Positions 1-63,784 of a DNA stretch of 64,000 nucleotides are shown here, one piece after another. Below the pieces are notes generated by a model. The model was not told the origin of the DNA. It was given only the letters and a program-made list of their open reading frames with translations, and made no database searches. The translations under genes and the position numbers were made by a program. Each line of letters starts with the position of its first letter. Position 1 is the first letter of the stretch. This DNA is from Deltaproteobacteria bacterium (GTDB taxonomy: Bacteria > Desulfobacterota > Binatia > UBA9968): assembly GCA_016210115.1 (NCBI GenBank), contig JACQUW010000326.1:131-64130 (forward strand). Direction: 5' to 3'.

Positions 1-74
1 GACCGGGTAATCAAGTGAAAGCGAGCAAAGAGTGGGCAGAGGGCAAAGGGCAGAAAAAACTCTGGAGAAGATTC

Positions 75-1055
75 ATGAGAAAAACAATCATTGGCTTCGC
101 GCTTGGCGCCATGCTCTTTGCACTTTGCGTGTCCGCCCACGCGCAGCAGCCGGGGAAGACGCCACGGATAGGTTATTTACAGATCGGCTCTGGACTCGGG
201 CCGGGATCTGAAGCATTCCTCCAAGGCCTGCGCGATCTCGGCTATGTCGAGGGGAGCAACGTCATCATAGAGTACCGGGGAGATCCCCAAAGAAGGGAAG
301 ATCGACTCCCGGAGCTGGCCGCTGATCTGGTCCGTCTCAAAGTGGACGTGATCGTTGCACTGGACCCACCAGCGGCGCGTGCTGCAAGGAACGCAACTAA
401 GACGATCCCCATCGTCATCAGGAGCACGGCAGACCCTGTTCGGGCAGGATTCGTATCCAGCCTTGCACGGCCGGGCGGAAACATCACGGGGATGACCTCG
501 ATCTCCACGGAGTTATATGGCAAGCGTTTGGAGTTGCTCAAAGAGATTATGCTACGACTCTCCCGCGTCGCCGTTATGCGGAATCCGGATCGTGGGGAGG
601 GCGCACACAACTTCAGGGAGATGCAGAATGTAGCCCGAGCGTTGGACCTGCAGCTTCAATCCCTGGAGGTCCGAGATCCAAACGATTTCGAAAATGCATT
701 CAGAGCCGCAGGCAGGGCTCGCGCGCAAGCGCTCATTACCATAAGGACTCCCCTCATCGTTAATCAGCGAAAACAGATTGCCGACTTGGCGGTAAAGAGC
801 CGGTTGCCAGCGATCTATGATGATCGCGCATTTGTAGAATCTGGCGGCCTGATGTCTTACGGTACGGACTTGGCTGATTTGCACCGGCGTGCCGCCATCT
901 ACGTAGACAAAATCCTCAAAGGCGCCAAGCCCGCCGACCTTCCGGTAGAGCAGCCGACGAAATTCGAACTGGTGATCAACCTCAAAACCGCTAAGCAAAT
1001 TGGACTGACGATCCCGCCAAATGTGCTGGCAAGAGCGGATAAGGTCATTAAATAG
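75..1055 (+). CDS. Periplasmic solute-binding protein, ABC_sub_bind (PF04392-like) family
   Basis: ORF 15..1055. Start moved to ATG 75, which has GGAGAAG upstream and gives the signal peptide MRKTIIGFALGAMLFALCVSAHA. Family-typical motifs RIGYLQ and RPGGNITG are present, as is the C-terminus PTKFELVINLKTAKQIGLTIPPNVLARADKVIK. Confidence 0.85.
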   Translation: MRKTIIGFALGAMLFALCVSAHAQQPGKTPRIGYLQIGSGLGPGSEAFLQGLRDLGYVEGSNVIIEYRGDPQRREDRLPELAADLVRLKVDVIVALDPPAARAARNATKTIPIVIRSTADPVRAGFVSSLARPGGNITGMTSISTELYGKRLELLKEIMLRLSRVAVMRNPDRGEGAHNFREMQNVARALDLQLQSLEVRDPNDFENAFRAAGRARAQALITIRTPLIVNQRKQIADLAVKSRLPAIYDDRAFVESGGLMSYGTDLADLHRRAAIYVDKILKGAKPADLPVEQPTKFELVINLKTAKQIGLTIPPNVLARADKVIK

Positions 1056-1560
1056 CAGGGAGCAAGGAGCATGGAGCAGGGGGAAAGAAACAGAATTCAG
1101 AGGTCGGAAATCGGAGGTCAATCTGGCACATGGCGAATGGCGTATGGCAGTAATGGATTCAACTCAGAGGTCAGAGGTCAGCAAAAGCACTCCGCGTAGG
1201 ATATCTGATTTGGGATTTCGGAATGCGGATCCTTCGACTTTTCTCAGGACAGGTTTTGCGTTGAGGAGAAGAACAATGGAACAATGGAAGGAATTTGGCC
1301 ACTCTTGCGGCATTCGGAAATCCGCAATCCCCAATCTCAAATCCGAATGCTACTGAGCCATTTGCTCTTTTCGCTTACCTCATCGGTTCTTCGAGGCGCA
1401 GCCACAAGACAAGCCGCTGAAGATTAGATTCTTACAGGTAAAATGTTGAAGACAATGACTTCAACAAAGTTTTTCGCGCCACAGGACGGCGCTTTGCTCG
1501 AGATGGTTTCTGATTTCGGATTTTCGAATGCGAATTTCGGATTGTGGATGGGGAGAAAGC
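1056..1560. repeat. Intergenic mosaic of short imperfect tandem words
   Basis: Runs include GGAGCA x3-4 (about 1058-1085), CAGAGGTCGGAAATCGGAGGTCA, ATGGCR x4 (1125-1157) and CAGAGGTCAGAGGTCAGC (1165-1182). Further runs are TGATTTGGGATTTCGGAATGCGG (1206-1228), GAACAATGGAACAATGGAAGGAAT and TGATTTCGGATTTTCGAATGCGAATTTCGGATT (1511-1547). Confidence 0.7.
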
Positions 1561-1601
1561 GGGGCAAGAACTGTGAAACAAAATCAGAAGGAGAGTGTGA
1601 T

Positions 1602-3203
1602 ATGAAGCCCAACCAACTGTTTGTAGTCCTGTCCCTCATAGCCCTTGTCTATGCTTCTTTGGGAAGAACACAGGAGCGGGCAACCGAGAAACTCGGGAAG
1701 GTTCACTTTCCAGTCTCCTGCAGTGCTGCGGCACAGAATCAATTCGACCGCGCCGTCGCGCTCTTGCACTCGTTCTCGCTCGATGAGGCGGCCAAGGCGT
1801 TCGCGTCGGTTGCCCAGGCCGATCCCAGCTGCGCGATGGCACACTGGGGCACCGCCGTGACGTTGTTCGGCAACCCGTTCACCTGGCCCTTAAGCGGCAA
1901 AGCGCTGCCCGACGGCTGGGCCGCAGTACAAAAAGCGCAGGCGGCTCAGGCCAAGACCCAGCGCGAGCGCGACTATATTGGTGCGGTCGAGGCGTTCTAC
2001 AAAGACTGGGACAAGGTAGACCACCGTACACGGGCGCTGGCCTACGTGAAGGCGATGGAAGGACTGGCGCAGCGCCATCCTGAAGATACCGAAGCGTCGG
2101 TATTCTATGCGCTGGCGCTCGATGTTACCGCCCTTCCCACCGACAAGACCTATGCCAACCAGTTGAAAGCTGCGAGAATCCTGGAAAAGGTATTCGCCGA
2201 GCAGCCCGACCATCCCGGCGTAGCGCACTACCTGATCCATAGCTACGATTTTCCACCCATTGCGGCACAGGGCCTGAGCGCTGCACGCCGGTACGCCGGC
2301 ATCGCCCCTTCCGCTCCGCACGCCCTGCATATGCCGTCGCACATCTTCACCCGGCGGGGACTGTGGGAGGAATCCATCGAGACGAATCGGCGCTCCGCCG
2401 CGGCGTCAAAAAACCATTTCGACAGCCTGCACGCCATGGATTACCTGGAGTACGCCTATCTGCAGAGCTCGCGGGACCGCGAAGCCAAGCGCGTGCTGGA
2501 CAAGATCAACGCCATCAAGAAAGTAGACCGGGAACATTTCGTCACCGCCTATGCCCTTGCGGCGATACCAGCACGTTACGCGCTTGAACGCGGCCGCTGG
2601 GCGGATGCGGCCGCGCTTTTACCCTACCCAGCCGAGAGGAGTTTCCCATGGGTCAAGTTTCCGCAAAGCATGACCATATTGGTTTATGCTCGCGCGCTGG
2701 GCGCCGCGCGCAGCGGCAACGCTGCCGCAGTGCGCGAGGAGATCGAAAGACTGAAAAGGCTGCGCGAGGCGATGATCGTAGCCAAGATTCCATACTGGGC
2801 ACAACAGACGGATATCCAAATCAAGGTCGCGTCGGCTTGGGCGGCATTTGCGGCGGGAGACAAACAGGAAGCACTTAAGCTCATGCGAGAAGGCGCCGAC
2901 ATGGAGGATGCGAGCGACAAACATCCCGTGACCCCTGGCCACGTCCTGCCGGCGCGTGAGCTACTGGGCGAAATGCTCCTGGAACTCAAGCAGGCCGCAT
3001 TAGCGCTGAAGGAATTCGAGGCGTCGCACAAACTCGAGCCGAACCGCTTCCGCGGCCTCTATGGCGCAGCACGGACGGCTGCGCAGTCGGGCGATATAGC
3101 TAAGGTAAAGACGTATTACGAGAAGCTTGTCGTCCTATCGAAATACGCCGATACCGAAAGGCCGGAACTTAAAGAGGCGAGAGCCTTCTTGTCAAAGAAG
3201 TGA
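1602..3203 (+). CDS. Secreted helical-repeat (TPR-like) protein of unknown function
   Basis: ORF 1443..3203. Start moved to ATG 1602, preceded by AAGGAGAG, giving the signal-like N-terminus MKPNQLFVVLSLIALVYASLG. Conserved-looking motifs are CAMAHWG, HPGVAHYLIHSYD and PHALHMPSHIFTRRGLWEES, and the C-terminal part looks TPR-like. Confidence 0.7.
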   Translation: MKPNQLFVVLSLIALVYASLGRTQERATEKLGKVHFPVSCSAAAQNQFDRAVALLHSFSLDEAAKAFASVAQADPSCAMAHWGTAVTLFGNPFTWPLSGKALPDGWAAVQKAQAAQAKTQRERDYIGAVEAFYKDWDKVDHRTRALAYVKAMEGLAQRHPEDTEASVFYALALDVTALPTDKTYANQLKAARILEKVFAEQPDHPGVAHYLIHSYDFPPIAAQGLSAARRYAGIAPSAPHALHMPSHIFTRRGLWEESIETNRRSAAASKNHFDSLHAMDYLEYAYLQSSRDREAKRVLDKINAIKKVDREHFVTAYALAAIPARYALERGRWADAAALLPYPAERSFPWVKFPQSMTILVYARALGAARSGNAAAVREEIERLKRLREAMIVAKIPYWAQQTDIQIKVASAWAAFAAGDKQEALKLMREGADMEDASDKHPVTPGHVLPARELLGEMLLELKQAALALKEFEASHKLEPNRFRGLYGAARTAAQSGDIAKVKTYYEKLVVLSKYADTERPELKEARAFLSKK

Positions 3204-3411
3204 GCCGATTGAGGCGGCGATCTTGGGTTGAAAGCCGTGAAAAAAACTACCTTCGCTAAGACAGCGAAAACAGGCCGGCCTTAGGATTCCGCGTAACGTG
3301 CTGGTGAGGGCAGCCAGGGTGATCAAATAAGACAACGCAACGGGCAAAGCGTCAAGTGCAAGGCGCAGAAGGCGAGAGGGAGTTAACAATAAAAGGACAG
3401 GAGAATAAAGC

Positions 3412-3860
3412 ATGAGCAGAAGAGGGTTTGTTCTTATCTGGCTGCTGCTTGCTGCCTTTCTGCCTGCTGTTTCTTTAACAGGGGCGCAACAGCCCAAAAA
3501 AATCTGGCGCATCGGTTCTTTCCATGTGGGTTTGGACCACGTCCCTCCTTCGTTCCCTGCTCTTCGCGAGGCCTTAAAGGCTTTAGGATACGAGGAAGGA
3601 AAGAACATCCACCTCGACTGGCGCAATCTGCCCGATGAGGAAGCCGCGCGTCGCTCTTCTCCTATAACCACGACCTTGCCTTCGTCGGCCGAGCCGCCGC
3701 TCCTTATGTGGACAAGATCCTAAAGGGCACCAAGCCAGCGGAGCTTCCCGTGCAACAGCCAAGCAAGTTTGATTTGGTCATCAATCTCAAGACCGCCAAG
3801 CAGATCGGCCTGACGATTCCGCCGAATGTGCTGGCAAGAGCGGACAAGGTCATTAAGTGA
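3412..3860 (+). pseudogene. PF04392-type SBP gene with large internal deletion and frame change
   Basis: The N-terminal roughly 80 codons have a signal peptide plus RIGSFHVGLDHVPP..LKALGYEEGKNIHLDWRNLPDEEAARR. Near 3645 they run into the C-terminal roughly 70 codons in another frame: LFSYNHDLAFVGRAAAPYVDKILKGTKPAELPVQQPSKFDLVINLKTAKQIGLTIPPNVLARADKVIK, stop 3858-3860. About 200 codons of a normal family member are missing. Confidence 0.8.
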
Positions 3861-3960
3861 TAGAAGTCAGAGGTCAGAAGTCTGAGGTCAGCAAAAGCAG
3901 CGCTTGTGATTTCGGATTTCGGAATGCGGCTTTGGAATTTAGGAATGAGAACAAGAAGGT
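3861..3960. repeat. Tandem-word spacer related to 1165-1228
   Basis: TAGAAGTCAGAGGTCAGAAGTCTGAGGTCAGCAAAAGCAG..TGATTTCGGATTTCGGAATGCGGCTTTGGAATTTAGGAATGAG. It shares the GAGGTCAGCAAAAGCA and TGATTTSGGATTTCGGAATGCGG modules with the spacer after the first SBP gene. Confidence 0.75.
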
Positions 3961-3979
3961 GAAATAATAGGTGACGTTT

Positions 3980-5068
3980 ATGCCAAAGAAAATTTTGATC
4001 GTGGATGACGAGCCGTTCAATCTCGACCTTCTGGAGCAGGAGCTTTGTGAGCAGGACTATGAAATCGAAAGGGCTAATGACGGCGTGGAGGCGCTGGAGA
4101 AGGTCCCGACTTTCGAGCCGGACGTCATCCTTCTCGACTATATGATGCCCAAGATGAACGGGCTCGAAGTGGTCCGGCGCCTGAAACAGGAGGAAAAATA
4201 CAGAGGGATCCCGGTGATTTTGCTGACTGCGAAGGCCTCTCAGGAAGACAAGATTAGAGGCCTCGATGCCGGTGCGGACGACTACGTGGTCAAGCCTTTC
4301 GACTCATTCGAGCTTCTTGCCCGGGTTCGCTCGATGCTGCGCATCAAACAGCTGCATGACTCATTGGATGAATGGAATAGGAATTTGAATGAGAAGGTAA
4401 ATCAGCAGGTAACCGAGATCGAGCGGATGGGCCGCCTCAAGCGCTACCTCTCTCCGCAGATCGCCGAGGTGATCCTGAAGAGCGACGACGATGCCCTTTT
4501 TAAGACTCACCGGCGCGAGATTACCGTGGTGTTTTTGGACCTGCGCGGTTTTACCGCATTCTCCGACAGCGCCGAGCCCGAAGAGGTCATCGACCTGCTC
4601 CGAAGCTATCACGCTGAGATGGGAACCCTGATCTTCAAGTTTGAAGGAACAGTGGAACATTTTGCCGGCGATGGGGTCATGGTCTTCTTTAACGACCCGA
4701 TTCCTTGCGATGACCACACGGAAAAGGCGGTCCGTATGGCTTCCGAGATGCGCGCGAGAGTCAAGGAGATCCGCGCCGGCTGGCTCAAGAAGGGTTATGA
4801 GCTCGATTTGGGGGTGGGCGTGGCGCGCGGCTATGCGACGCTCGGCAACATTGGGTTCGAAGGCCGAAGGGACTATGGGGCCGTGGGCAATGTGACTAAC
4901 CTGGCCGCGCGGCTCTGTGATGAGGCAAAAGGAGGCCAGATCCTCATCTCGCAGCGGGCCCTCGCCTCGGTCGAAGCATTGGTGGAGGTTGAGCCGATCG
5001 GCGAGCTTTCTTTAAAGGGATTTCACCGGGCTGTTCCGGCGTATAACGTGCTCGCGCTGAAATCGTAA
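3980..5068 (+). CDS. Response-regulator receiver domain fused to class III adenylate/guanylate cyclase domain
   Basis: The REC domain shows KILIVDDEP, DVILLDYMMPKMNG, LLTAK and DDYVVKPF. A coiled linker follows, then the cyclase domain (ITVVFLDLRGFTAFS, FAGDGVMVFFNDP, GNVTNLAARL). The ORF begins at GTG 3971; ATG 3980 is preferred. Confidence 0.9.
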   Translation: MPKKILIVDDEPFNLDLLEQELCEQDYEIERANDGVEALEKVPTFEPDVILLDYMMPKMNGLEVVRRLKQEEKYRGIPVILLTAKASQEDKIRGLDAGADDYVVKPFDSFELLARVRSMLRIKQLHDSLDEWNRNLNEKVNQQVTEIERMGRLKRYLSPQIAEVILKSDDDALFKTHRREITVVFLDLRGFTAFSDSAEPEEVIDLLRSYHAEMGTLIFKFEGTVEHFAGDGVMVFFNDPIPCDDHTEKAVRMASEMRARVKEIRAGWLKKGYELDLGVGVARGYATLGNIGFEGRRDYGAVGNVTNLAARLCDEAKGGQILISQRALASVEALVEVEPIGELSLKGFHRAVPAYNVLALKS

Positions 5069-5087
5069 GGCTTTCGTAGCCGAACCG

Positions 5088-5888
5088 TCAGAGGCGCAAG
5101 AAATCGCCGTCCTTCAAAACCATCAGCCGCTGGCCTTTGATCTTCTTCAGATCCCTAATGATCTCCTCACGATAGATCGGCTTCAGATGGGTTGCCAGAA
5201 ACGGAGTCGAGGGTCTTCCGAGCTTACCCGCCTCTTCGGCTAAGCTCTGAGGGGTGTGATGGCCGCTCTTGGTCGCGAGTTCCTGAAGCCGGTTAGGATA
5301 GGAGGTCTCCAGCACGACCGCGCAGAGATTCTTTTTGCGCCGGGCCAGAGACCAAATCTGTGCTGTGGGACCGGTGTCGCCGATGTGGAGCAGGGTCTTG
5401 CCTCGGTTAGTGATGAAAAACCCGGTGCTCGGAATGGAGTGATCCACTCGCACCGCGGTCACCACCGAATCGCCCACGGCCGCCGGTTCTTTTTCTCGTA
5501 GCGCGCCAAAGGACAGTATGGGCCTTGTCTGGTCCTCCCCGGTGATACGGGTAAAATCCGGCCATAGCGTATTGTTGAAAAGAGAGGCTTTTAAACCGGA
5601 GATGACGGGCCGGATTCCCCAGACGTGAATCGTAAACCCGTTGCCGTAGAGATTATCGGCGAGAGAAGCAAGCCCTAAGACATGATCCAAATGGCAATGA
5701 GTGATGAGAATGTTTTTGATCTTTCGCTGTTCGTTCAGGCTCAGCACAGAGGCCGCAGAACCCGCATCGATCAACAAAGAGCCGTTAACAAGATACGATG
5801 AAAGGTTCCGCCCCGGAAGTTGACCCCCGGCGCAACCGAGGACACGGAACTCTATGGTTGCATCCCTCATGCGTTTGCAGTAAATCAT
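5088..5888 (-). CDS. MBL-fold hydrolase resembling class II 3',5'-cyclic-nucleotide phosphodiesterase
   Basis: ILITHCHLDHVLGLASL matches the first nine positions of the class II PDE signature HxHLDH[LIVM]x[GS] as I recall it. The MBL-type layout is present (LIDAGS.., HxHxDH, later H and D). The gene is convergent with the cyclase gene. The start could be ATG 5888 or ATG 5870. Confidence 0.65.
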   Translation of the reverse strand: MIYCKRMRDATIEFRVLGCAGGQLPGRNLSSYLVNGSLLIDAGSAASVLSLNEQRKIKNILITHCHLDHVLGLASLADNLYGNGFTIHVWGIRPVISGLKASLFNNTLWPDFTRITGEDQTRPILSFGALREKEPAAVGDSVVTAVRVDHSIPSTGFFITNRGKTLLHIGDTGPTAQIWSLARRKKNLCAVVLETSYPNRLQELATKSGHHTPQSLAEEAGKLGRPSTPFLATHLKPIYREEIIRDLKKIKGQRLMVLKDGDFLRL

Positions 5889-5939
5889 AACCGCAAAAAA
5901 AATGGAATCTCCAATATCTGTTCAGGCCCTGGAGGTTGA

Positions 5940-6926
5940 ATGACCGCAGTGAAGTTCGCCCTGCTCTTATCGGCCATGCTCTTTTTTTCTTTGACGGCTG
6001 ATCGCGCCAGTCGGGCGGCGAATTCAAATCTACTCGTCGGGGTCCTGGTCCCAGAATACCTTCGTTCGGAGTCCCAGGTGATCAAGGGCCTGAAACAAGG
6101 GCTGGAAGAGGCGGGCTACAAAGAAAAGAAAAATCTCTTCATTGAGATGCGCAACGCCAAGGGCAACCGGGGGGCGTTAGATCCCCTGGCGCGGGAGTTG
6201 TTGAGCAGGAAAGTCGCCGCCATCCTCACCACCGGCACAAGGGCTACGCGAGCGGCCCTGTCGGCATCGGCAAACATACCAGTCGTTTTCTGCCATCCCG
6301 CGGACCCTGTCGCGCTGGGCCTTGTTAAAACGATGGAGCGGCCGGGAGGCAATGCGACCGGGGTGGCCGGCCTGGCTCTCCAGGCAACCCATAAGCGCGT
6401 GGAAGTGCTTCGGACGATTGTTCCCGGCACGCGCCGGGTGTTGATTTTTTACGACGCCAACAATCCCAATTCGCAGGAGAATTTCCGCATAGCTCAGACG
6501 GCGGCCAGCAAACAGGGGCTGCAGGTCTCGCCGCACCCGGTGAAGTCCACGGACGAATTGAAGGTTTCGATGAGCGCGCTTCAGGTTAATGACGGTGATG
6601 TTTTGTTTCAAGTATCCGATGACCTCGTGGATGGACAGGCGGCGTTTATTTTCGAAGAGGCACGAAAAAAGAAATTGCCCACTATTTTTAATGACGAAAT
6701 GTGGGCGATCAACGGCGCTATGCTGGCTTACGGCCCGAGCTATTTTGAAATGGGGCATCAAGCGGCCGGATTAGTGACTAAAATCTCGCGCGGGGAAAAG
6801 CCCGCGGCCCTGCCGGTGGAACAAGTCCGCAAGTTCGACCTGGTGATCAACTATCGAGCGGCCAGGGTAATCGGGCAGGATATTCCAAGAGCGTTAGTGA
6901 AAAAAGCCGACCGGGTTATCTGGTAA
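5940..6926 (+). CDS. Periplasmic solute-binding protein, ABC_sub_bind (PF04392-like) family
   Basis: GGAGG lies upstream of ATG 5940. The signal peptide is MTAVKFALLLSAMLFFSLTA. Family motifs are RPGGNATG and the C-terminus PVEQVRKFDLVINYRAARVIGQDIPRALVKKADRVI. It is a paralog of 75-1055. Confidence 0.85.
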   Translation: MTAVKFALLLSAMLFFSLTADRASRAANSNLLVGVLVPEYLRSESQVIKGLKQGLEEAGYKEKKNLFIEMRNAKGNRGALDPLARELLSRKVAAILTTGTRATRAALSASANIPVVFCHPADPVALGLVKTMERPGGNATGVAGLALQATHKRVEVLRTIVPGTRRVLIFYDANNPNSQENFRIAQTAASKQGLQVSPHPVKSTDELKVSMSALQVNDGDVLFQVSDDLVDGQAAFIFEEARKKKLPTIFNDEMWAINGAMLAYGPSYFEMGHQAAGLVTKISRGEKPAALPVEQVRKFDLVINYRAARVIGQDIPRALVKKADRVIW

Positions 6927-6935
6927 TCGTTTTTT

Positions 6936-9605
6936 ATGGCTGACTTAACCGACACCATCAAGGCCATCCCGCTATTTTCCGAACTGCCCCGCAGTGACGT
7001 CGCCAAGATTCTTGGAAAGCTGGAGGAGATCACCTTCACGGCCGGCACCAGGATTTTCTCCCAAGGCGATCCCGGCGACGCCTTCTATCTCATCCAGTCC
7101 GGTAGCGTCAGCGTCGTCCTGGAGGGTGGGGATGGCAGATCCGAAACTATCGCAGTCCTCGGCCCGCATCACTGGTTTGGCGAAATGGCGCTCCTGTCGG
7201 GCGAGCCTCGATCAGCGACGATCAGGGCCATCAAAGACACCACCGCCTGGAGGCTCAACCGCGACAACTGGGATGAACTTATCGAAGGCCATCCGGGCTG
7301 GCTATTTAAGTTTTGCGCTACGCTCAGCAAGAGGCTAACCCGCATAGAGCACCAATATTCGAAGGGAAGGGAAGCCTTTAACCTCCTGGCGGAGGAATAT
7401 TACTCTTCGCGACCCGCCGAGGAGCAGGCGTTTTTGCGCCGCGCCTCGTTGGTTCAAACGCTGGACGTCCGAGTCGTCAGCTTCCTCTTAAAGACTGACA
7501 AAGGCCAGGAATTCTTGAAGGCGCTCCAAAGCAGCCAACTGCCGATGGTGCGCACCCTGAACGACAGCCGATGCGAGCTCCAGCCTCTTTTCAAAGAATT
7601 CCTGATGGAAAAACTGGTCGTCTTGGAGGGGCCTTTTGCCAAAAGGCAGCTGCACGCCCAGTTGGCCACACTCTACGAATCATTGCAGACTTGGGATCAG
7701 GCTATTCAGCACTATCTGGAGGCTGAAGATTGGGGCGGCGCGTCTCATCTTCTCTTAGCGCACAGAGAGGAGCTTTTACAAAGCTCCGCCTCATTTCTGG
7801 AAAGCGCCCTGAACCGGATGCCGCCGGAGTGCATCTCCGCCGAGCTTCGCCTGGTTCACCTCAAGGCGGACCTGCAAATAAAACTCGGGAACCCCGAGGG
7901 CGCGATCCGAACGTACAAGGAAATCCTCGCTCAGAGAACTTCGGGCATCGTGGGAGCGGAATCGATAACTCGTTATCGCGACATGGCGAACGTCATGGCG
8001 CAAAAAAGGGACTATTCCCAGGCTCTCCAGTGCCTCCGCAGCGCTCTCCGCCTGACGGAGCAGGAAACCGCCAACCTCAGCTGGGAGGCGGCCAAGCCCT
8101 ACCGGGTAAACGGAGAAGCAGAGCCGCCGGTCTTCCAATCGGAAGAAAGCGCGCTGAAGCTGCAGGGACGGCAAACTTTGATCCCTCTGGTTTTCAATTG
8201 GGCGGGCAACGCCTCTCCGAGCAAGTGGTTTGGAGCGATATTGGGTCTTTTGGTTTGGGCCTACTTTTGGTTCTGGACACCGGAGATCGGTCTTGAACCC
8301 TATGCAACTAAACAGCTTGGCGTGCTCTGCCTGACATTGATCTATTGGGTCTTTTGGGTATTTCCGGATTACGGCGTGGCCCTCATTTTCGCGCTGACGC
8401 TCGTGCTCACGAAGCTGGCGCCCGTGGAGACGGTACTGGGTGGATTTGCAAGCACCACCTGGTTCATGACGCTGGGAGTTCTGGGACTGGGCGCGGCAAT
8501 CACGAGCTGCGGGCTTTTCTATCGTTTCTCGCTCCAGTTGGTGCGTTTTTTTCCTCTGACATACTATTGGCAAACGATCGCTCTCGGCATCATGGGCGTC
8601 GTGGTGATGGCCCTGATCCCGCAGCAGAGCGCCCGCACGGCCATCATCAGTCAAATGCTCCAAAATCTCTCCGAGAGTCTCAGCTATAAGACACCTTCGA
8701 AGGCATCCACAGGTCTCTTCGTTGCGAGTTTCCTGGGTCTTGGGCAGCTCGGTTTTCTCTTTCTGACGGGATCCACGACAAGCCTCATAGCCTGGGGATT
8801 GCTTCCCGCGGACGTCCGCGCGCAATTCACCTGGGGCTATTGGTTTCTCGCTGCTCTCCCTCCCACCTTAGTCGTTATCGTCTTTGTCCTCTTAGCGACA
8901 GTTTTTCTTTACCGCCCCGAGACACAGCCTCAGCTCTCCTACAAAATGGTTCAAAATCAGCTCGAGGTCCTTGGAGCGCTCTCTTCAAAGGAATGGATCA
9001 CGCTCGGCGCCCTTTTCTTCACTGTCGGCGGATGGCTGACCTTTTCCTACCACGGCATCGATGGCGCCTGGATCTCACTCATTGGATTCTGCGTTCTCAT
9101 CAACACGGGGGTCTTGGGGTGGGGGCTAGTGAAAAAAGCGATCGATTGGGAATTGCTGCTCTACATGGGCGCCACTTTGGGAATACCCGCCCTGCTGACG
9201 CGAGCGAAAATTGATGAGTGGCTTGTCGGGCTGCTCTCGCCTTTTATCCTTCCCTTTGTCGAATATCCCGCTGTTTCCTTTGTCATCATCTGCCTGATCA
9301 GCTACGCGTTTAAGCTGGTGTTCACAAGCTTTCTAACCGTTGTGACGCTCACCGTCGCCTTGCTTCCGCTCTCCATCGACATGGGGATCAGCCCCTGGAT
9401 CATGGCCATGCTCGTTCTCGTGGGATCGGAGGTCTGGTTTTTTCGGTTTCAAGTAGACTGGCACACGCTCGCTTATTCGACGACTGAAGGCAAAGGCTTC
9501 AGCTATCAGTTCATGAACTGGATCAATCCCGTTTACGCCGTGGCCTACATCCTGGCGCTCCTCGCGTCCATCCCTTATTGGAGATATTTGGGGCTGATGG
9601 GGTAA
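6936..9605 (+). CDS. Fusion protein: cyclic-nucleotide-binding domain, MalT-like helical/TPR region and multi-pass ion-transporter (DASS/ArsB-like) permease domain
   Basis: The N-terminus has a canonical cNMP-binding fold with the phosphate-binding cassette FGEMALLSGEPRSATIRA. The middle region resembles MalT/LuxR-type sensor TPRs (LATLYESLQTWDQAIQHYLEAEDWGGASHLLLAHREELL). The C-terminal roughly 460 aa are very hydrophobic with about 10-12 predicted helices and a two-half organisation reminiscent of DASS/IT-superfamily carriers. Confidence 0.85.
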   Translation: MADLTDTIKAIPLFSELPRSDVAKILGKLEEITFTAGTRIFSQGDPGDAFYLIQSGSVSVVLEGGDGRSETIAVLGPHHWFGEMALLSGEPRSATIRAIKDTTAWRLNRDNWDELIEGHPGWLFKFCATLSKRLTRIEHQYSKGREAFNLLAEEYYSSRPAEEQAFLRRASLVQTLDVRVVSFLLKTDKGQEFLKALQSSQLPMVRTLNDSRCELQPLFKEFLMEKLVVLEGPFAKRQLHAQLATLYESLQTWDQAIQHYLEAEDWGGASHLLLAHREELLQSSASFLESALNRMPPECISAELRLVHLKADLQIKLGNPEGAIRTYKEILAQRTSGIVGAESITRYRDMANVMAQKRDYSQALQCLRSALRLTEQETANLSWEAAKPYRVNGEAEPPVFQSEESALKLQGRQTLIPLVFNWAGNASPSKWFGAILGLLVWAYFWFWTPEIGLEPYATKQLGVLCLTLIYWVFWVFPDYGVALIFALTLVLTKLAPVETVLGGFASTTWFMTLGVLGLGAAITSCGLFYRFSLQLVRFFPLTYYWQTIALGIMGVVVMALIPQQSARTAIISQMLQNLSESLSYKTPSKASTGLFVASFLGLGQLGFLFLTGSTTSLIAWGLLPADVRAQFTWGYWFLAALPPTLVVIVFVLLATVFLYRPETQPQLSYKMVQNQLEVLGALSSKEWITLGALFFTVGGWLTFSYHGIDGAWISLIGFCVLINTGVLGWGLVKKAIDWELLLYMGATLGIPALLTRAKIDEWLVGLLSPFILPFVEYPAVSFVIICLISYAFKLVFTSFLTVVTLTVALLPLSIDMGISPWIMAMLVLVGSEVWFFRFQVDWHTLAYSTTEGKGFSYQFMNWINPVYAVAYILALLASIPYWRYLGLMG

Positions 9606-9638
9606 GGTTTTACCGACGATTGATCTGAAGGCATCCCA

Positions 9639-11186
9639 TCAGAGAGGGGCCTTGATGCCATACCGCTTCATCTTTTTAATGAAACCTTGCCGGCTTAAGC
9701 CCAACGCAGCCGCCGCCTGCTGCTGATTATTGCGACTCTGTTCCAGCGCCTCGAGCATCAGACGTTTTTCCAATTCAGCGACGGCCTCTTTCAACGGGCG
9801 TCTTGAGCTCGATATCGACGCGGTTGTCACGCCAAGTCTTCGGACACCCTCAGGTAAATCCGCAGGCGTAATCATTCTCCCAGCAACCGAGAGCACCAAC
9901 CGTTTCATCTCGTTCTCGAGTTCCCTCACATTCCCTGGCCAGGAATACCGCATGAGGGCGCTCATGGCTTCGTGCGTTAAATCCAGGGGTTCCCTGCCGG
10001 CTTCCCGACAGTAACTCGCGAGGAAATAGTTCGTCAAAAGCGGGATATCCTCTCTGATCTCACGAAGCGCCGGCATTTGGATGTGAATTACCTTCAAGCG
10101 ATAGTACAGATCTTCACGAAAAGCGCGCTGCTTGATCTCCGTTTCCAAATCCTTGTTAGTCGCCGATAGAACTCTGACATCCACAGGGATCGATTTCCTC
10201 CCGCCCACGTGCTCGATGATTCTCTCCTGCAAAACCCGCAGCAGCTTGGCTTGCGCTCCGAGACTAAGGTCGCCGACCTCGTCCAGAAACAATGTGCCTC
10301 CATGTGCTGCCTCGAACTTCCCCGTCCGTCTCTCGACGCCGGTTGCCACGCCCCTCTCGATGCCAAACAGCTCGCTTTCCACCAGCGCCTCCGGGAGAGC
10401 GGCGCAATTGAGAGCTACAAACGGCCCCCGGGCCCGCGGGCTCTTGTAGTGAATCGCCTTGGCCGCCAATTCCTTGCCCGTACCGCTCTCCCCGGTAATC
10501 AAGACGTTAACCGAACTGTTACTGATCTGATCGATCACTTTCAGAACCGCCTGGATTTTTTGGCTGGTGCCGATGATGTGTTCAGTAGAAAATCGCCCCT
10601 CAACCTCCTTCCAAAGGTGGCCGATTTGTTCCTGGAGCTGATCTCGATGCCGGCTCATCTCCTCCATCATCTGGGCCGTTTCGATAGCTACGGCGGCTTG
10701 CGCGGCTAGCGCTTTCAGAATCTCTTCGTCTTCATGGCTGAAAACTCCGGTCTTCTTATTTAAAACCTCAAAAGCCCCGATGATTTCCCCTTGATAGTCT
10801 CGCAGCGGGACCGCGAGAAGACTCCGCGTGCGGTAGCCGGTTCGCAGGTCGATCTCGCGATAAAAACGCGGGTCCTGGTGCGCGTCTTCCACGTTAATGG
10901 TCTCGCCCGTCGCGAGCACCGCTCCAGCAATGCCGAAGCGGGCTTCAAACCGCAGGATTCCCTCACTGCCGAGCGCTACCCTGGACGAAAGCTCGTTCTT
11001 TTCCCGATCGAGCAGAAAAAGACTCGCTCGATCCGCTTCCATCAAGTTGGTAGCCTCCTTGGCAATCAAGTCCAACAGAGCCGATAAGTCTCTTTCGGAA
11101 GACATTTTTTGGCAGATATTGAGAATAGGGAAGAGTTTTTCTGCCAAATGGCCTGGTTGGCTCGCAATTGGCTCTCTTGAATCCAT
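9639..11186 (-). CDS. Sigma-54-dependent transcriptional activator with N-terminal GAF domain (GAF, AAA+, Fis-type HTH)
   Basis: Walker A is GESGTGKE. The segment ESELFG..GGTLFLDEVGDL follows, with RVLSATN and a C-terminal HTH (NQQQAAAALGLSRQGFIKKMKRYGI). Start moved to ATG 11186, preceded by GGAGGGGG. The GAFTGA loop reads GVATGV. Confidence 0.9.
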   Translation of the reverse strand: MDSREPIASQPGHLAEKLFPILNICQKMSSERDLSALLDLIAKEATNLMEADRASLFLLDREKNELSSRVALGSEGILRFEARFGIAGAVLATGETINVEDAHQDPRFYREIDLRTGYRTRSLLAVPLRDYQGEIIGAFEVLNKKTGVFSHEDEEILKALAAQAAVAIETAQMMEEMSRHRDQLQEQIGHLWKEVEGRFSTEHIIGTSQKIQAVLKVIDQISNSSVNVLITGESGTGKELAAKAIHYKSPRARGPFVALNCAALPEALVESELFGIERGVATGVERRTGKFEAAHGGTLFLDEVGDLSLGAQAKLLRVLQERIIEHVGGRKSIPVDVRVLSATNKDLETEIKQRAFREDLYYRLKVIHIQMPALREIREDIPLLTNYFLASYCREAGREPLDLTHEAMSALMRYSWPGNVRELENEMKRLVLSVAGRMITPADLPEGVRRLGVTTASISSSRRPLKEAVAELEKRLMLEALEQSRNNQQQAAAALGLSRQGFIKKMKRYGIKAPL

Positions 11187-11273
11187 ACCCCCTCCCGTTT
11201 CTGAGCTTCCATACTCAGAGTTGGTGCCGAGGTGTTTAACAGGTAACGAGATGACCGTCAACAAAGTTCACAT

Positions 11274-11290
11274 TGTAAACTTCGTTTACA
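11274..11290. promoter_or_regulatory. Perfect palindrome TGTAAAC-TTC-GTTTACA, candidate activator binding site (UAS)
   Basis: A 7-bp inverted repeat with a 3-bp spacer lies about 170 bp upstream of the sigma-54 promoter, inside the divergent intergenic region. A second palindrome, ATTCGCGAAT, is at 11418-11427. Confidence 0.3.
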
Positions 11291-11456
11291 GATCGCGAAA
11301 CCCCTTCAGTTGCCGGGCTTTAGATCAACAGGCTCCAATTGTTTCCAATGGGAGCTGACAACGGAGATTCCACTCGCCCTTAGGCGTGTAAGTTCGTTGA
11401 ACGAAAAAACCCTCGTTATTCGCGAATACTTGTTCGTATCCTCCTTGCTATCCGAG

Positions 11457-11472
11457 TGGCATTGCGTTTGCT
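11457..11472 (+). promoter_or_regulatory. Sigma-54 (-24/-12) promoter
   Basis: TGGCATTGCGTTTGCT fits TGGCAC-N5-TTGCW, with GG and GC at the correct 10-nt spacing. It lies about 90 nt upstream of ATG 11561 and is divergent from the sigma-54 activator gene. Confidence 0.6.
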
Positions 11473-11560
11473 CAAATAACTATGGCGGCCGCGAGTTGAG
11501 AGCACCAGGAAAAAGGACCGGCAATGCGTGCATCCGTTCAAAATAAAAGGAGGTAACATT

Positions 11561-12040
11561 ATGGCTAGGCAGATTCTGGTTGCGCTAAAACCTCAACAGC
11601 GACTGGATGAGATCATGCCTTATATTGAGGAGATCGTCCGCCCAGGGGAAAAAGTTATCTTTCTTATGCGTTACCCGGTGAAGCCATGGCTTTGGCTGCA
11701 GGACCACTGGGTGACTACGGAATCGATCACGCAGGCCATGCTGGCAGGGAAAATAATGATGGAAAGATACTCCTGGGAAATGCAAAAGACGTTGGCAGAG
11801 GAAAGAATTGCTCCAGCCCGGCGCGTTTTGCGCAGCAAGGGAGTCGACGTGGCTCCGGAGATTTATACATCCAGCTTAAAGACCGTGGTAGAAACTTATA
11901 CGCGGACCGGAGAAGTCCTGCTGCTGCAGGCGGATAGCGGCCTTCCACTAATGAGGTTCCTTCGCAGTGCGACTGCTTTCTTAGGATTCTTTAGAAAGGC
12001 GAGCTTTCCGCCGGTGCTTCTGCTCCGGCCGGGTCATTGA
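11561..12040 (+). CDS. Small hypothetical protein with weak universal-stress-protein-like pattern
   Basis: A strong RBS, AAAGGAGG, sits 6 nt before ATG 11561. The alternating beta/alpha pattern (ILVALK.., KVIFLMRY.., VLLLQA.., PPVLLLRP) is USP-like, but no ATP-binding G-x2-G-x9-G(S/T) motif is present. Confidence 0.55.
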   Translation: MARQILVALKPQQRLDEIMPYIEEIVRPGEKVIFLMRYPVKPWLWLQDHWVTTESITQAMLAGKIMMERYSWEMQKTLAEERIAPARRVLRSKGVDVAPEIYTSSLKTVVETYTRTGEVLLLQADSGLPLMRFLRSATAFLGFFRKASFPPVLLLRPGH

Positions 12041-29381: not shown

Positions 29382-29468
29382 AAAACCACCCCGTTGAAAT
29401 TTTCGCTGCCAGCGGACAAACAAATTTGCAGTCCGGCCCGGTTTCTGACGATTCGATTGATACAAGGC

Positions 29469-39467: not shown

Positions 39468-39492
39468 AGAATCATCTGCCCCTTTGACTCCG

Positions 39493-39527
39493 AGATCCCC
39501 TCTTTGAAAAAGAGGCGATAGGGGATT
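39493..39527. repeat. REP-like palindromic element
   Basis: GAGATCCCC-TCTTTGAAAAAGAGG-CGATA-GGGGATTTTC has an inner 7-bp stem CCTCTTT/AAAGAGG and an outer stem ATCCCC/GGGGAT. Confidence 0.5.
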
Positions 39528-39553
39528 TTCCGAGCTCCGCTGCGATTCATACG

Positions 39554-42828: not shown

Positions 42829-42920
42829 ATAAGTGCCTCGCTTTGTACGACCGTCACGGCCGTCCTTCCGTCTGCCAGTCCACATTATTCAGCTCTGTGC
42901 TTGAGACCGGCGCAGAACTT

Positions 42921-44378: not shown

Positions 44379-44494
44379 ATCCAACCTGGCAGAGGGTTCA
44401 TACGTAACTTAGCGGTTCTAAAAAGGCGCCGAGAAGGCCTGTTCTCTCGCTCTTCTTGCGAAATCCGGCCGCTCTCCGTCATGTCCGCGCAGAG

Positions 44495-45661: not shown

Positions 45662-45683
45662 GGATCTCCTGCCTTTCTCTTCG

Positions 45684-62454: not shown

Positions 62455-62484
62455 GTTTCTCACCTTGTGAGATGACTCCTCCCT

Positions 62485-63753: not shown

Positions 63754-63784
63754 AATTCCTCCGTACCTCCGATTTAAAACGTAG

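What the first reader, a model, noticed from the sequence alone, without database searches (positions are those of the whole stretch)
3980..9605. Compact cyclic-nucleotide module: maker, breaker, binding protein and cNMP-binding permease side by side
Four adjacent genes encode a receiver-domain class III cyclase (3980-5068), a convergent MBL hydrolase with a class II cNMP-phosphodiesterase-like HCHLDHVLG motif (5088-5888), a periplasmic PF04392-type SBP (5940-6926), and a membrane protein whose N-terminus is a canonical cNMP-binding domain (6936-9605). Synthesis, degradation and an effector that looks like a transporter therefore sit within 5.6 kb. This suggests a self-contained second-messenger circuit controlling solute uptake or efflux. 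No cognate histidine kinase for the receiver domain is in the window. I also cannot tell cAMP from cGMP: the residue aligned to the specificity Lys appears to be His in EHFAGDG.
Basis: partly seen in the sequence, partly recalled or inferred. Interest (0 to 1): 0.75.

Follow-up and report, generated by a model that had tools for sequence, protein, structure and literature searches.

The report
Cyclic-nucleotide-gated DASS permease with its own binding protein
A soil bacterium of the uncultured Binatia group keeps a cyclic-nucleotide maker, a likely breaker and a periplasmic binding protein next to a transporter that carries its own cyclic-nucleotide sensor; comparison with about 80 related genomes shows the grouping is conserved, not chance, and suggests an undescribed kind of binding-protein-assisted, second-messenger-controlled transporter.

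Summary
All four ORFs lie at the stated coordinates and have the stated domains. The permease has three parts: a cNMP-binding domain, a MalT-like winged-helix/TPR arm, and a DASS/SLC13 elevator-type transporter.

It belongs to a large uncharacterised family, with at least 772 close homologues, mostly from Binatia.

In 74 related loci:
- The PF04392 binding-protein orthologue lies directly upstream in 46 of 59 loci, usually 4-30 bp away.
- An MBL hydrolase is present in 28 of 50 loci.
- The receiver-cyclase orthologue is present in 19 of 50 loci.
- Class III cyclase genes are at least 10-fold denser within 2 kb of the permease than 4-10 kb away.

The linkage to cyclases or MBL hydrolases recurs in a 32%-identical paralogous clade and in a Firmicute. 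There, a binding-protein domain is fused to the periplasmic C-terminus of the permease. This fusion argues that binding protein and permease work together.

Still open: cAMP versus cGMP (the specificity pair is His/Arg-Gly), the transported substrate, and the kinase that feeds the receiver. No activity was tested.

Verdict: a real, conserved, modular cNMP-transport cassette and a new variant of known kinds. Interest 0.65.

The parts
3388..3860 (+). Remnant of a second PF04392 binding-protein gene (SBP'). In related loci the intact gene sits directly upstream of the receiver-cyclase.
   Evidence: tblastn with intact orthologues from L013, L027 and L023 matches only their N-terminal ~78 aa (window 3388-3624) and C-terminal ~68 aa (3654-3857, stop 3858-3860). 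The two pieces are in different frames and about 190 residues are missing.
3971..5068 (+). Response-regulator receiver fused to a class III nucleotidyl cyclase (365 aa from GTG 3971, or 362 aa from ATG 3980).
   Evidence: Pfam Response_reg and Guanylate_cyc. Best solved relative of the catalytic domain is P. aeruginosa CyaB, 3R5G, E 1.4e-36. The receiver segments DDEPFN, ILLDYMMP, LLTAKAS and DDYVVKPF, and the cyclase segments FLDLRGF (metal Asp), GDG (metal Asp) and NLAAR (Asn, Arg), are conserved in 22 orthologues. The base-specifying pair is His-Gly here and Arg-Gly/Ser/Asp in the orthologues.
5088..5888 (-). Cytoplasmic metallo-beta-lactamase-fold hydrolase resembling class II 3',5'-cNMP phosphodiesterases (266 aa).
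   Evidence: Pfam PDEase_II at 56.4 bits against a cut-off of 23.7. The best PDB match by sequence and by orthologue profile is yeast PDE1 (4OJV), E 7e-6 and 2e-9, sharing HxHLDHxxGL...WG...FN..WPD.T. Candidate metal ligands H64, H66, D68, H69, H150, D171, H210 and H234 are invariant in 6 orthologues.
5940..6926 (+). Secreted PF04392 (ABC_sub_bind) solute-binding protein, the dedicated partner of the permease (328 aa).
   Evidence: Pfam 2.5e-56. An N-terminal signal-peptide-like sequence is visible by eye. An orthologue of 44-62% identity lies directly upstream on the same strand in 46 of 59 related loci, with a gap of mostly 4-30 bp. The window gap is 9 bp. Solved relatives are 3LKV, 6HNI and 3LFT.
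6936..9605 (+). Permease of 889 aa. CNB domain at nt 7029-7289 (aa 32-118). MalT-like winged-helix/TPR arm at about nt 7374-8060 (aa 147-375). Variable low-confidence linker at aa 379-422. DASS/SLC13 transporter domain at nt 8223-9596 (aa 430-887).
   Evidence: Pfam. NCBIfam MalT positions 251-419 match aa 147-314. PF25873 WHD_MalT is present in homologues. AF2 model mean pLDDT 69; Foldseek TM-score (normalised to target) 0.75-0.77 to AtDiT2.1, NaCT and VcINDY. Phosphate-binding cassette FGEMALLSGEPRSA: 10 of 12 positions invariant and 2 at 90% or more in 50 homologues.
9639..11264 (-). GAF-sigma54 enhancer-binding protein, convergent with the permease. A possible accessory gene, only loosely linked.
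   Evidence: Pfam GAF, Sigma54_activat and HTH_8. A 74% orthologue sits at the same place in L049. Weaker relatives occur in L030, L042 and L069. A GAF-sigma54 activator also lies beside a clade-2 permease in L081.

Best explanation
A modular cyclic-nucleotide cassette built around a regulated, binding-protein-assisted secondary transporter.

Shown by sequence and comparative genomics:
1. A phosphorylatable receiver is fused to a catalytically intact class III cyclase.
2. A cytoplasmic MBL hydrolase of the class II PDE type is present.
3. A secreted PF04392 binding protein is operon-coupled to the permease.
4. The permease has a DASS elevator fold and an N-terminal CNB domain with a near-invariant phosphate-binding cassette.

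Inferred:
1. A histidine kinase encoded elsewhere phosphorylates the receiver and switches the cyclase.
2. The product, most likely cAMP, is removed by the MBL phosphodiesterase.
3. The nucleotide binds the cytoplasmic CNB domain. That domain is tethered through a MalT-like winged-helix/TPR arm and a flexible linker of about 45 residues. Binding releases or imposes a block on the elevator movement of the DASS domain.
4. The periplasmic binding protein captures the substrate and docks on the outward face of the DASS dimer, as in TRAP, TTT and TAXI-GltS systems. Uptake would then need both external substrate and the internal second messenger.

The substrate is unknown. PF04392 proteins with solved ligands bind aromatic amino acids. 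The first hairpin motif of the permease (PxxSAR) resembles that of plant DiT dicarboxylate exchangers.
For: - Domains.
- Intact catalytic and receiver residues.
- Class II PDE affinity of the MBL. Its metal ligands are invariant.
- DASS fold. The SAR hairpin motif is shared with DiT1 and DiT2.
- CNB cassette nearly invariant (10 of 12 positions invariant, 2 at 90% or more).
- Binding protein to permease coupling in 46 of 59 loci, with gaps of a few bases.
- Cyclase genes are at least 10-fold enriched within 2 kb of the permease. Their input domains vary (REC, CHASE2, sCache-HAMP, HAMP, GAF), so the linkage is to the cyclase function and not to one gene.
- An MBL sits beside the binding-protein and permease genes in 28 of 50 loci. 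This includes 12 loci that lack the receiver-cyclase orthologue upstream (several have another cyclase nearby).
- Linkage is repeated in a paralogous clade of about 32% identity.
- In D. gibsoniae a CHASE2-cyclase lies next to a CNB-DASS-Peripla_BP_6 fusion. The binding domain follows the last transmembrane helix directly, on the periplasmic side. A related cluster has the same parts as separate genes.
- For cAMP: canonical Lys-Thr or Lys-Asp cyclases neighbour family members in L017, L023, L074, L075, L079 and L080. L017 and L023 carry both an Arg-Gly receiver-cyclase and a Lys-Thr CHASE2-cyclase around one permease.
- The Lys/Glu position decides ATP versus GTP in Cya2: PMC5995499.
Against: - No activity, ligand binding or transport was measured.
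- The base-specifying pair is non-canonical (His-Gly; Arg-Gly in orthologues). The second residue matches the guanylate cyclase Cya2 (Glu-Gly), so cGMP or another cNMP is possible.
- Some neighbouring cyclases carry Asp-Gly, Asn-Gly or Glu-Gly.
- In most loci the MBL is a different, RNase-Z-like family with no detectable class II PDE signal. Its role as a cNMP phosphodiesterase rests on context alone.
- The window's MBL matches only the first 10 of the 15 positions of the class II PDE signature and covers profile positions 79-282 of 340.
- The permease scores below the NCBIfam DASS cut-off (130 against 198.6) and lacks the Ser-Asn-Thr motifs.
- The AF2 model has moderate confidence only (pLDDT 69, pTM 0.44).
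- No binding-protein-dependent DASS has been demonstrated.
- The paralogous clade has no adjacent binding protein.
- 7 of 50 loci have none of the partner genes upstream.
Confidence: 0.6

Rival explanations
1. The membrane protein is a sensor or transceptor and not a working transporter. The binding protein reports an external ligand. The DASS domain transmits this inward. The CNB/TPR arm integrates it with cNMP and recruits partners. The output is signalling, not flux.
For: TPR and MalT-like arms are typical protein-interaction or ligand-sensing modules. The domain scores below the NCBIfam DASS cut-off and lacks SNT motifs. Regulators are frequent neighbours: a GAF-sigma54 activator in the window and L081, and a GAF kinase plus response regulator in L076. 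Binding proteins are known to feed receptors as well as transporters (PMC10443332).
Against: The whole DASS fold, with both hairpins, is retained. It is highly conserved, including the PxxSAR hairpin motif shared with working DiT exchangers. Unfused relatives of 465-510 aa exist, as expected for ordinary transporters.
Confidence: 0.15
2. The MBL hydrolases are not cNMP phosphodiesterases. They act on the transported compound, for example a phosphodiester or sulfate ester. The binding protein, permease and MBL would then form a catabolic uptake unit that merely lies near cyclases.
For: An MBL accompanies the binding-protein and permease genes in 12 loci without the receiver-cyclase orthologue upstream. 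The commoner MBL2 family is closest to RNase Z and shows no PDE1 signal. The window's MBL profile also matches an MBL-fold arylsulfatase (8GYG) over nearly its full length, E 4.8e-6. The Pfam family of the permease is named after sulfate symport.
Against: The window's MBL passes the PDEase_II gathering score, and its best solved relative is a class II PDE with family-specific motifs. It is also related to the cNMP-degrading Apyc1. MBL2 is translationally coupled to the cyclase, with gaps of a few bases, in 16 loci. Two unrelated MBL families occupy the same slot, which fits a shared simple task such as cNMP turnover. MBL2 overlaps the start of a clade-2 permease that has no binding protein.
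Confidence: 0.12
3. The PF04392 protein serves an ABC transporter encoded elsewhere, or is an orphan receptor. Its position upstream of the permease reflects co-regulation only.
For: PF04392 is defined as an ABC-transporter binding-protein family. These genomes hold many orphan paralogues, three in the first 7 kb of the window and several per related locus. The paralogous permease clade works without an adjacent binding protein.
Against: One specific orthologous group (44-62% identity, against 27-38% for the other paralogues) sits 4-30 bp upstream in 46 of 59 loci. No ABC membrane-component gene was identified within about 6 kb of it in the window; the only ABC_tran ATPase (13420-14199) lies beside a phosphonate-type binding protein about 6.5 kb downstream. 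A binding-protein domain of the same Pfam clan (clan membership from my own knowledge) is covalently fused to the periplasmic end of related permeases, including one in an isolate genome.
Confidence: 0.15
4. Chance juxtaposition of abundant signalling genes in a genome rich in cyclases and binding proteins.
For: Binatia-type loci contain many cyclases and PF04392 paralogues. The exact four-gene arrangement is rare, seen only in the window and L002.
Against: Cyclase ORF density falls from 13.8 to about 0.5-1.3 per 100 kb beyond 4 kb from the permease. The linkage recurs across clades and phyla.
Confidence: 0.03

Closest known systems
DASS/SLC13 transporters (VcINDY, LaINDY, human NaCT/NaS1, plant plastid DiT1/DiT2.1)
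   Same: The C-terminal 460 aa adopt the DASS elevator fold: Foldseek TM-score (normalised to target) 0.75 to AtDiT2.1 and 0.77 to NaCT, and Pfam PF00939 covered end to end. The first hairpin motif P-x-x-S-A-R matches DiT1 and DiT2.1.
   Different: About 430 extra N-terminal residues (CNB plus MalT-like arm). No Ser-Asn-Thr motifs. An invariant Glu in the GSEVWFF segment, which aligns near the DiT2.1 'NT' motif (my reading: the second hairpin). Below the NCBIfam DASS cut-off. A dedicated periplasmic binding protein, which no characterised DASS member uses as far as I know.
Prokaryotic cyclic-nucleotide-gated channels (MloK1, SthK)
   Same: A canonical CNB domain is covalently attached to a membrane transport protein, so the second messenger acts directly on the transport machine. 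The CNB is homologous: MloK1 E 1e-12, SthK 6e-11.
   Different: Those are tetrameric channels with a C-terminal CNB joined by a C-linker. Here the CNB is N-terminal, separated by a WHD/TPR arm and a flexible linker, and the target is an elevator-type carrier.
Binding-protein-dependent secondary transporters: TRAP (DctPQM, TAXI), TTT (TctABC) and the proposed TAXI-GltS class (PMC12344293)
   Same: A periplasmic binding protein is genetically coupled to an elevator-type secondary transporter. TRAP membrane components share the DASS fold (PMC12344293). Fused and split versions both exist.
   Different: The binding protein belongs to PF04392 or Peripla_BP_6, not to DctP, TAXI or TctC. The membrane part is a DASS protein that probably dimerises (inferred from the family), with no Q-like subunit. 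A cytoplasmic cNMP sensor is added. Dependence of transport on the binding protein is not demonstrated.
Class II 3',5'-cyclic-nucleotide phosphodiesterases (yeast Pde1, Vibrio fischeri CpdP; Pfam PF02112)
   Same: MBL fold, HxHLDHxxG metal motif, and the downstream WG...FN..WPD.T block. Passes the Pfam gathering score. PDE1 is the best solved relative.
   Different: Shorter: 266 aa, covering positions 79-282 of the 340-position profile. Only partial agreement with the 15-position signature. Also resembles RNase Z, Apyc1 and an MBL arylsulfatase at lower scores.
Class III cyclases with receiver domains, and Synechocystis Cya2 / P. aeruginosa CyaB catalytic domains
   Same: Class IIIb-like catalytic core. 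Closest solved structures are CyaB (3R5G) and Cya2 (2W01). Control by phosphorylation of a fused receiver is known from cyanobacterial CyaC (my own knowledge).
   Different: The base-specifying pair is His-Gly (Arg-Gly in orthologues). CyaB has Lys-Thr and Cya2 has Glu-Gly. No kinase is fused or adjacent.

Membership tests
Class III nucleotidyl cyclase (Pfam PF00211) | Profile match above the curated cut-off | tested here: met
   71.9 bits against 21.9. CyaB 3R5G E 1.4e-36.
Class III nucleotidyl cyclase (Pfam PF00211) | Two metal-binding Asp, and the transition-state Asn and Arg | tested here: met
   D in FLDLRGF, D in AGDG, and N and R in NLAAR. Conserved in all REC-cyclase orthologues.
Adenylate cyclase specifically | Lys plus Asp/Thr base-specifying pair | tested here: not met
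   His-Gly in the window and Arg-Gly/Ser/Asp in 21 orthologues. CyaB has Lys-Thr and the guanylate cyclase Cya2 has Glu-Gly. E488K switches Cya2 to ATP (PMC5995499).
Response-regulator receiver (PF00072) | Acidic pocket (Asp-Asp), phospho-acceptor Asp, and the conserved Thr and Lys | tested here: met
   The conserved segments DDEPFN, ILLDYMMP, LLTAKAS and DDYVVKPF carry these residues in 22 sequences. Pfam 112.6 bits.
Response-regulator receiver (PF00072) | Cognate histidine kinase | tested here: not met
   No HisKA or HATPase_c domain in the larger ORFs scanned across the 64 kb window (most non-overlapping ORFs of 150 aa or more).
Class II cNMP phosphodiesterase (PF02112; PROSITE PS00607) | Profile match above the curated cut-off | tested here: met
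   56.4 bits against 23.7, covering profile positions 79-282 of 340. The L002 and L074 orthologues also match.
Class II cNMP phosphodiesterase (PF02112; PROSITE PS00607) | Signature H-x-H-L-D-H-[LIVM]-x-[GS]-[LIVMA]-[LIVM](2)-x-S-[AP]. Pattern recalled from memory; yeast PDE1 as aligned fits it. | tested here: not met
   HCHLDHVLGLASLAD agrees at the first 10 positions and fails at [LIVM](2), S and [AP] (sequence).
Class II cNMP phosphodiesterase (PF02112; PROSITE PS00607) | Closer to a class II PDE than to RNase Z or lactamases | tested here: met
   Orthologue profile against PDB: PDE1 (4OJV) E 2.2e-9 and 40.5 bits; RNase Z 4.5e-6 and 29.6 bits. All NCBIfam RNase Z hits are far below their cut-offs.
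Class II cNMP phosphodiesterase (PF02112; PROSITE PS00607) | Hydrolysis of 3',5'-cAMP or cGMP | not testable with these tools
   Needs an enzyme assay.
DASS / SLC13 (PF00939; TIGR00785) | Profile match and fold | tested here: met
   PF00939 117.4 bits against 27, profile positions 3-471 of 472. Foldseek TM-score (normalised to target) 0.75-0.77 to DiT2.1, NaCT and VcINDY.
DASS / SLC13 (PF00939; TIGR00785) | NCBIfam DASS subfamily cut-off | tested here: not met
   130.4 bits against 198.6.
DASS / SLC13 (PF00939; TIGR00785) | Ser-Asn-Thr motifs at the two hairpin tips of the Na+-coupled members (my own knowledge) | tested here: not met
   The first motif is PQQSAR, as in DiT1 and DiT2.1 (SAR). 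The second region is GSEVWFF.
Cyclic-nucleotide-binding domain (PF00027) | Profile match and a phosphate-binding cassette with Gly-Glu and Arg-Ser/Thr | tested here: met
   90.4 bits against 27.5. FGEMALLSGEPRSA: 10 of 12 positions invariant and 2 at 90% or more in 50 homologues.
Cyclic-nucleotide-binding domain (PF00027) | Binding of cAMP or cGMP | not testable with these tools
   Needs ITC or a similar binding assay.
Binding-protein-dependent secondary transporter (TRAP / TTT) | DctP/TAXI or TctC binding protein with DctQM or TctAB membrane subunits | tested here: not met
   The binding protein is PF04392 and the membrane protein is PF00939. No DctQ, DctM, TctA or TctB lies beside it. A weak DctM hit occurs only in a distant relative, P0140.
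Binding-protein-dependent secondary transporter (TRAP / TTT) | Genetic coupling or fusion of a binding protein to the secondary transporter | tested here: met
   46 of 59 loci, gaps mostly 4-30 bp. C-terminal Peripla_BP_6 fusions in P0180 and in P0271 from D. gibsoniae.
Binding-protein-dependent secondary transporter (TRAP / TTT) | Transport requires the binding protein | not testable with these tools
   Needs reconstitution.

The most novel reading that the evidence does not exclude
PF04392 or Peripla_BP_6 binding proteins together with these DASS permeases form a further, undescribed class of binding-protein-dependent secondary transporters, alongside TRAP, TTT and TAXI-GltS. Their elevator movement is gated from inside the cell by a cyclic nucleotide through an N-terminal CNB/MalT-like arm. 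This would be the first carrier, as opposed to channel, shown to be directly cNMP-gated, with dedicated cyclases and MBL phosphodiesterases as local signal source and sink.
Probability: 0.3. Interest if true: 0.8.

Novelty: new variant of a known kind. Interest (0 to 1): 0.65.

Why it matters
In bacteria, direct second-messenger control of solute carriers is well documented for c-di-AMP. For cAMP and cGMP the established direct membrane targets are channels.

This family is large. It has at least 772 close homologues. In a library clustered at 50% identity, 602 cluster representatives match the permease below E 1e-30; many are CNB-DASS fusions, others are unfused DASS or multi-CNB proteins. 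It would place an elevator-type carrier under direct cNMP control and give a function to some of the many orphan cyclases of soil bacteria.

The conserved pairing, and occasional fusion, with periplasmic binding proteins suggests another route by which binding proteins feed secondary transporters. That topic was reopened only in 2025 by the TAXI-GltS work.

The cassette is compact, and every part can be expressed and tested in vitro.

Tried and rejected
- Exact look-up of the window's permease in the contig index found nothing. Context therefore came from homologues.
- Full-text searches found no paper:
  - CNB plus SLC13/DASS.
  - Binatota plus adenylate cyclase.
  - A broader search on cNMP-binding transporters gave only a 2005 census, where the term appears in one reference title.
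- Sigma-70 promoter and terminator scans of 3300-11600 were at or below shuffle expectation and say nothing about operon structure.
- Rfam and tRNA scans of the window were empty.
- The AF2 model of the permease reached only pLDDT 69 and pTM 0.44. I used it only for fold assignment, not for residue-level or domain-packing claims.
- No multimer prediction tool was available, so docking of the binding protein on the permease could not be modelled.
- I considered that the RNase-Z-like MBL2 might be the genome's true RNase Z. I rejected this because it scores 88.8 bits against a cut-off of 293.
- I considered that the 586-aa TPR-like protein (1443-3203) belongs to the cassette. I rejected this because tblastn found no counterpart in any related locus.
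- I considered deciding cAMP versus cGMP from the Arg-Ser of the CNB cassette. I rejected this as not diagnostic.

Full report
**1.

The four ORFs are at the stated coordinates. Pfam gives these domains:
- 3971/3980-5068 (+): Response_reg plus Guanylate_cyc.
- 5088-5888 (-): PDEase_II at 56.4 bits against a gathering score of 23.7, plus Lactamase_B_2 and Lactamase_B.
- 5940-6926 (+): ABC_sub_bind (PF04392).
- 6936-9605 (+): cNMP_binding at aa 32-118, TPR hits, and Na_sulph_symp at aa 430-887.

The quoted motifs HCHLDHVLG and EHFAGDG are present.

The stretch between the CNB and transporter domains is a MalT-like winged-helix/TPR arm. NCBIfam MalT positions 251-419 match aa 147-314. PF25873 WHD_MalT is precomputed for all homologues.

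I scanned the larger ORFs across the window, most of the non-overlapping ORFs of 150 aa or more, with Pfam. None carries a histidine kinase domain.

**2. Organism and family**

The permease has at least 772 homologues with E of 0.001 or better. The 120 listed are 64-70% identical, 880-897 aa long and share the same architecture. Their sources name them 'SLC13 family permease' or 'anion transporter', and they come from Candidatus Binatia or 'Deltaproteobacteria' MAGs. A scan of one genome per species returned 73 loci, nearly all labelled Binatia or unclassified Deltaproteobacteria.

**3. The neighbourhood is conserved but modular**

I searched the loci with the window's proteins by tblastn.
- Binding protein: a specific orthologue (44-62% identity, against 27-38% for other PF04392 paralogues) lies directly upstream on the same strand in 46 of 59 loci that have enough sequence. 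The gap is mostly 4-30 bp, and 9 bp in the window.
- Receiver-cyclase: an orthologue of 69-80% identity lies 2-3 kb upstream in 19 of 50 loci.
- Between cyclase and binding protein sits an MBL hydrolase in 28 of 50 loci.
  - In 5 loci it is the window's PDEase_II-like type, on the minus strand (L001, L002, L003, L049, L074).
  - In 23 loci it is a different protein of about 310 aa on the plus strand, which I call MBL2 (motif FWGVRGSYP).
- MBL2 is often only a few bases from the cyclase stop codon.
- All three partners occur together in 16 of 50 loci.
- The window's exact arrangement recurs only in L002.

Other loci carry other class III cyclases next to the permease: CHASE2-cyclases, an sCache-HAMP-cyclase, HAMP-cyclases and a zinc-ribbon-cyclase-AAA-TPR protein.

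Cyclase-domain ORFs occur at 13.8 per 100 kb within 2 kb of the permease. The density is 2.8 per 100 kb at 2-4 kb and 0.5-1.3 per 100 kb at 4-10 kb. This rules out chance juxtaposition.

**4. The linkage extends beyond the close family**

A search of 1.84 billion cluster representatives found 602 proteins with E of 1e-30 or better. They include:
- full-length relatives of 26-32% identity with the same length and architecture;
- many 610-670-aa CNB-DASS proteins without the arm;
- unfused DASS relatives of 465-510 aa;
- a CstA-CNB-DASS fusion;
- P0180, a CNB-DASS protein with a Peripla_BP_6 domain fused to its C-terminus.

The same fusion, P0271, is encoded in the complete genome of Desulfoscipio gibsoniae. 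There the binding domain follows the last transmembrane helix after about 20 residues. The helix is homologous (PFWKHLDL against PYWRYLGL in the window).

The C-terminus of DASS proteins is extracytoplasmic (my own knowledge, from VcINDY and NaDC1 topology). The fused domain is therefore where a binding protein must be.

In D. gibsoniae a CHASE2-cyclase lies 1.7 kb upstream. In a related Desulfotomaculum MAG the Peripla_BP_6 protein and the CNB-DASS are separate genes of one cluster.

In a paralogous clade with the full architecture (about 32% identity), all three loci I examined have a cNMP-related neighbour:
- a convergent cyclase 190 bp downstream (L079);
- a GAF-cyclase 2 kb upstream (L080);
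- an MBL2 whose stop overlaps the permease start (L081).

No binding protein is adjacent in that clade.

**5. The parts**

*Cyclase.* The closest solved catalytic domains are P. aeruginosa CyaB (E 1.4e-36) and Synechocystis Cya2. The metal-binding Asp residues and the transition-state Asn and Arg are intact. The receiver's Asp-Asp, Asp, Thr and Lys are conserved.

The base-specifying position is His in the window and Arg in 21 orthologues. It is Lys in CyaB, Glu in the guanylate cyclase Cya2, and Lys in the E488K adenylate-cyclase variant (6FHT). The second position is Gly, as in Cya2. PMC5995499 states that this single residue switches Cya2 between GTP and ATP.

Canonical Lys-Thr or Lys-Asp cyclases neighbour family members in L017, L023, L074, L075, L079 and L080. 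L017 and L023 have both an Arg-Gly receiver-cyclase and a Lys-Thr CHASE2-cyclase flanking one permease. I therefore favour cAMP, at roughly 60%. Asp-Gly, Asn-Gly and Glu-Gly neighbours also exist, so the question stays open.

*MBL hydrolase.* The best solved relative is yeast class II PDE1. E is 7e-6 with the single sequence and 2.2e-9 with a six-orthologue profile, ahead of RNase Z at 4.5e-6. The two share HxHLDHxxGL, WG and FN..WPD.T. The candidate metal ligands are invariant. It matches only the first 10 of 15 positions of the PROSITE class II signature as I recall it. It also resembles Apyc1 and an MBL arylsulfatase at lower scores.

MBL2 is related to it only at superfamily level: 28% identity over 43 aa, and hhalign probability 89%. 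MBL2 is closest to RNase Z, with no PDE1 signal. Its phosphodiesterase role is inferred from position alone.

*Binding protein.* The N-terminus looks like a signal peptide (by eye). Solved relatives are 3LKV, 6HNI and 3LFT. PF04392 structures with ligands hold Trp, Tyr or Phe (PMC10443332).

*Permease.* The phosphate-binding cassette FGEMALLSGEPRSA is invariant at 10 of 12 positions, and at 90% or more at the other two, in 50 homologues.

The AF2 model has mean pLDDT 69 and a very low-confidence linker at aa 379-422. It matches AtDiT2.1, NaCT and VcINDY with TM-scores (normalised to target) of 0.75-0.77. The best sequence matches in PDB are the plant exchangers DiT1 and DiT2.1, which share the PxxSAR hairpin motif. 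Ser-Asn-Thr motifs are absent. The NCBIfam DASS score is below its cut-off.

**6. Mechanism**

Steps shown and steps inferred are listed under the best explanation. In short, an unidentified kinase sets cyclase activity through the receiver. The MBL phosphodiesterase resets the signal. The nucleotide binds the cytoplasmic CNB domain. Through the tethered MalT-like arm, that domain controls the elevator movement of the DASS dimer. The periplasmic binding protein supplies the substrate.

Rivals:
- a non-transporting sensor;
- MBLs that act on the cargo and not on the nucleotide;
- a binding protein that only shares regulation with the permease;
- chance juxtaposition.

**7. Comparison and novelty**

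Each part belongs to, or resembles, a known family. The combination appears undescribed. Searches for CNB plus SLC13/DASS found no paper. [quoted passage not shown] The passages I retrieved from it do not mention binding-protein-coupled DASS proteins.

I rate this a new variant of known kinds: a cNMP-gated membrane transport protein and a binding-protein-dependent secondary transporter. Interest is 0.65. The evidence is comparative only, but it is consistent across clades and phyla, and every step can be tested in vitro.

Noticed in passing
window 3388-3860: Deleted remnant of a PF04392 binding-protein gene. Only about 78 N-terminal and 68 C-terminal residues remain, in different frames. In many related loci the intact gene sits directly upstream of the receiver-cyclase, so the ancestral cassette probably had two binding proteins.
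   Followed up: yes
window 15-1055 and 1443-3203: A third PF04392 binding protein is followed by a 586-aa protein with only faint TPR hits and no family assignment. Neither has a counterpart next to the cassette in related loci.
   Followed up: partly
window 9639-11264 (-); L049:13471-15012; L081:4865-6400: A GAF-sigma54 enhancer-binding protein recurs beside CNB-DASS genes, with a 74% orthologue in L049 and another in a clade-2 locus. GAF domains can bind cyclic nucleotides, so this could be a transcriptional output of the same signal.
   Followed up: partly
window 27864-58119: A large minus-strand catabolic island with paralogous gene sets:
- Three xanthine-dehydrogenase/CO-dehydrogenase-type molybdenum hydroxylase large subunits (29469-31763, 46625-48934, 52807-55179), with 2Fe-2S and FAD subunits.
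- Three UbiD-family decarboxylases (31788-33248, 42921-44384, 56752-58119).
- A fused hydantoinase A/B (35520-39557).
- A cupin and an amidohydrolase.
   Followed up: no
window 28419-29465, 33960-34931, 41857-42885, 44675-45697, 61423-62463, 62779-63942: Many apparently orphan NMT1-type and TctC-type binding-protein genes lie in the catabolic island with no adjacent transporter membrane genes. This echoes the orphan PF04392 genes near the cassette.
   Followed up: no
L075 (Desulfoscipio gibsoniae CP003273.1) and L077: In Firmicutes the CNB-DASS, with a fused or separate Peripla_BP_6, sits in clusters with an HlyD-like protein and C39-peptidase ABC exporters. In L075 there are also small NHase_alpha-like (NHLP-type) precursor genes and a radical SAM enzyme. 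These are RiPP/bacteriocin export cassettes. The window's CNB also weakly matches TIGR03896, 'bacteriocin-type transport-associated protein'.
   Followed up: partly
L004, L008, L010, L014, L055, L058, L070; L001, L003, L005, L031; L006: CHASE2- and HAMP-cyclases next to CNB-DASS genes carry unusual base-specifying pairs: Asp-Gly, Asn-Gly, and a Cya2-like Glu-Gly in L006. All catalytic residues are kept. Their products may not be cAMP.
   Followed up: partly
L076:6099-9890: Two tandem CNB-DASS paralogues of about 630 aa, without the arm, in a Geobacteraceae MAG. They are followed with overlapping stops and starts by a GAF histidine kinase and a NarL-type response regulator.
   Followed up: no
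P0160 (1380 aa, metagenomic representative): A triple fusion CstA - cNMP_binding - DASS, which joins two different transporter domains through a CNB domain.
   Followed up: no
L044:12856-15270: Directly downstream of one CNB-DASS gene lies an 804-aa pyridine-nucleotide-disulfide oxidoreductase with two cNMP-binding domains and 4Fe-4S clusters. This is another candidate cNMP effector in the same neighbourhood.
   Followed up: no
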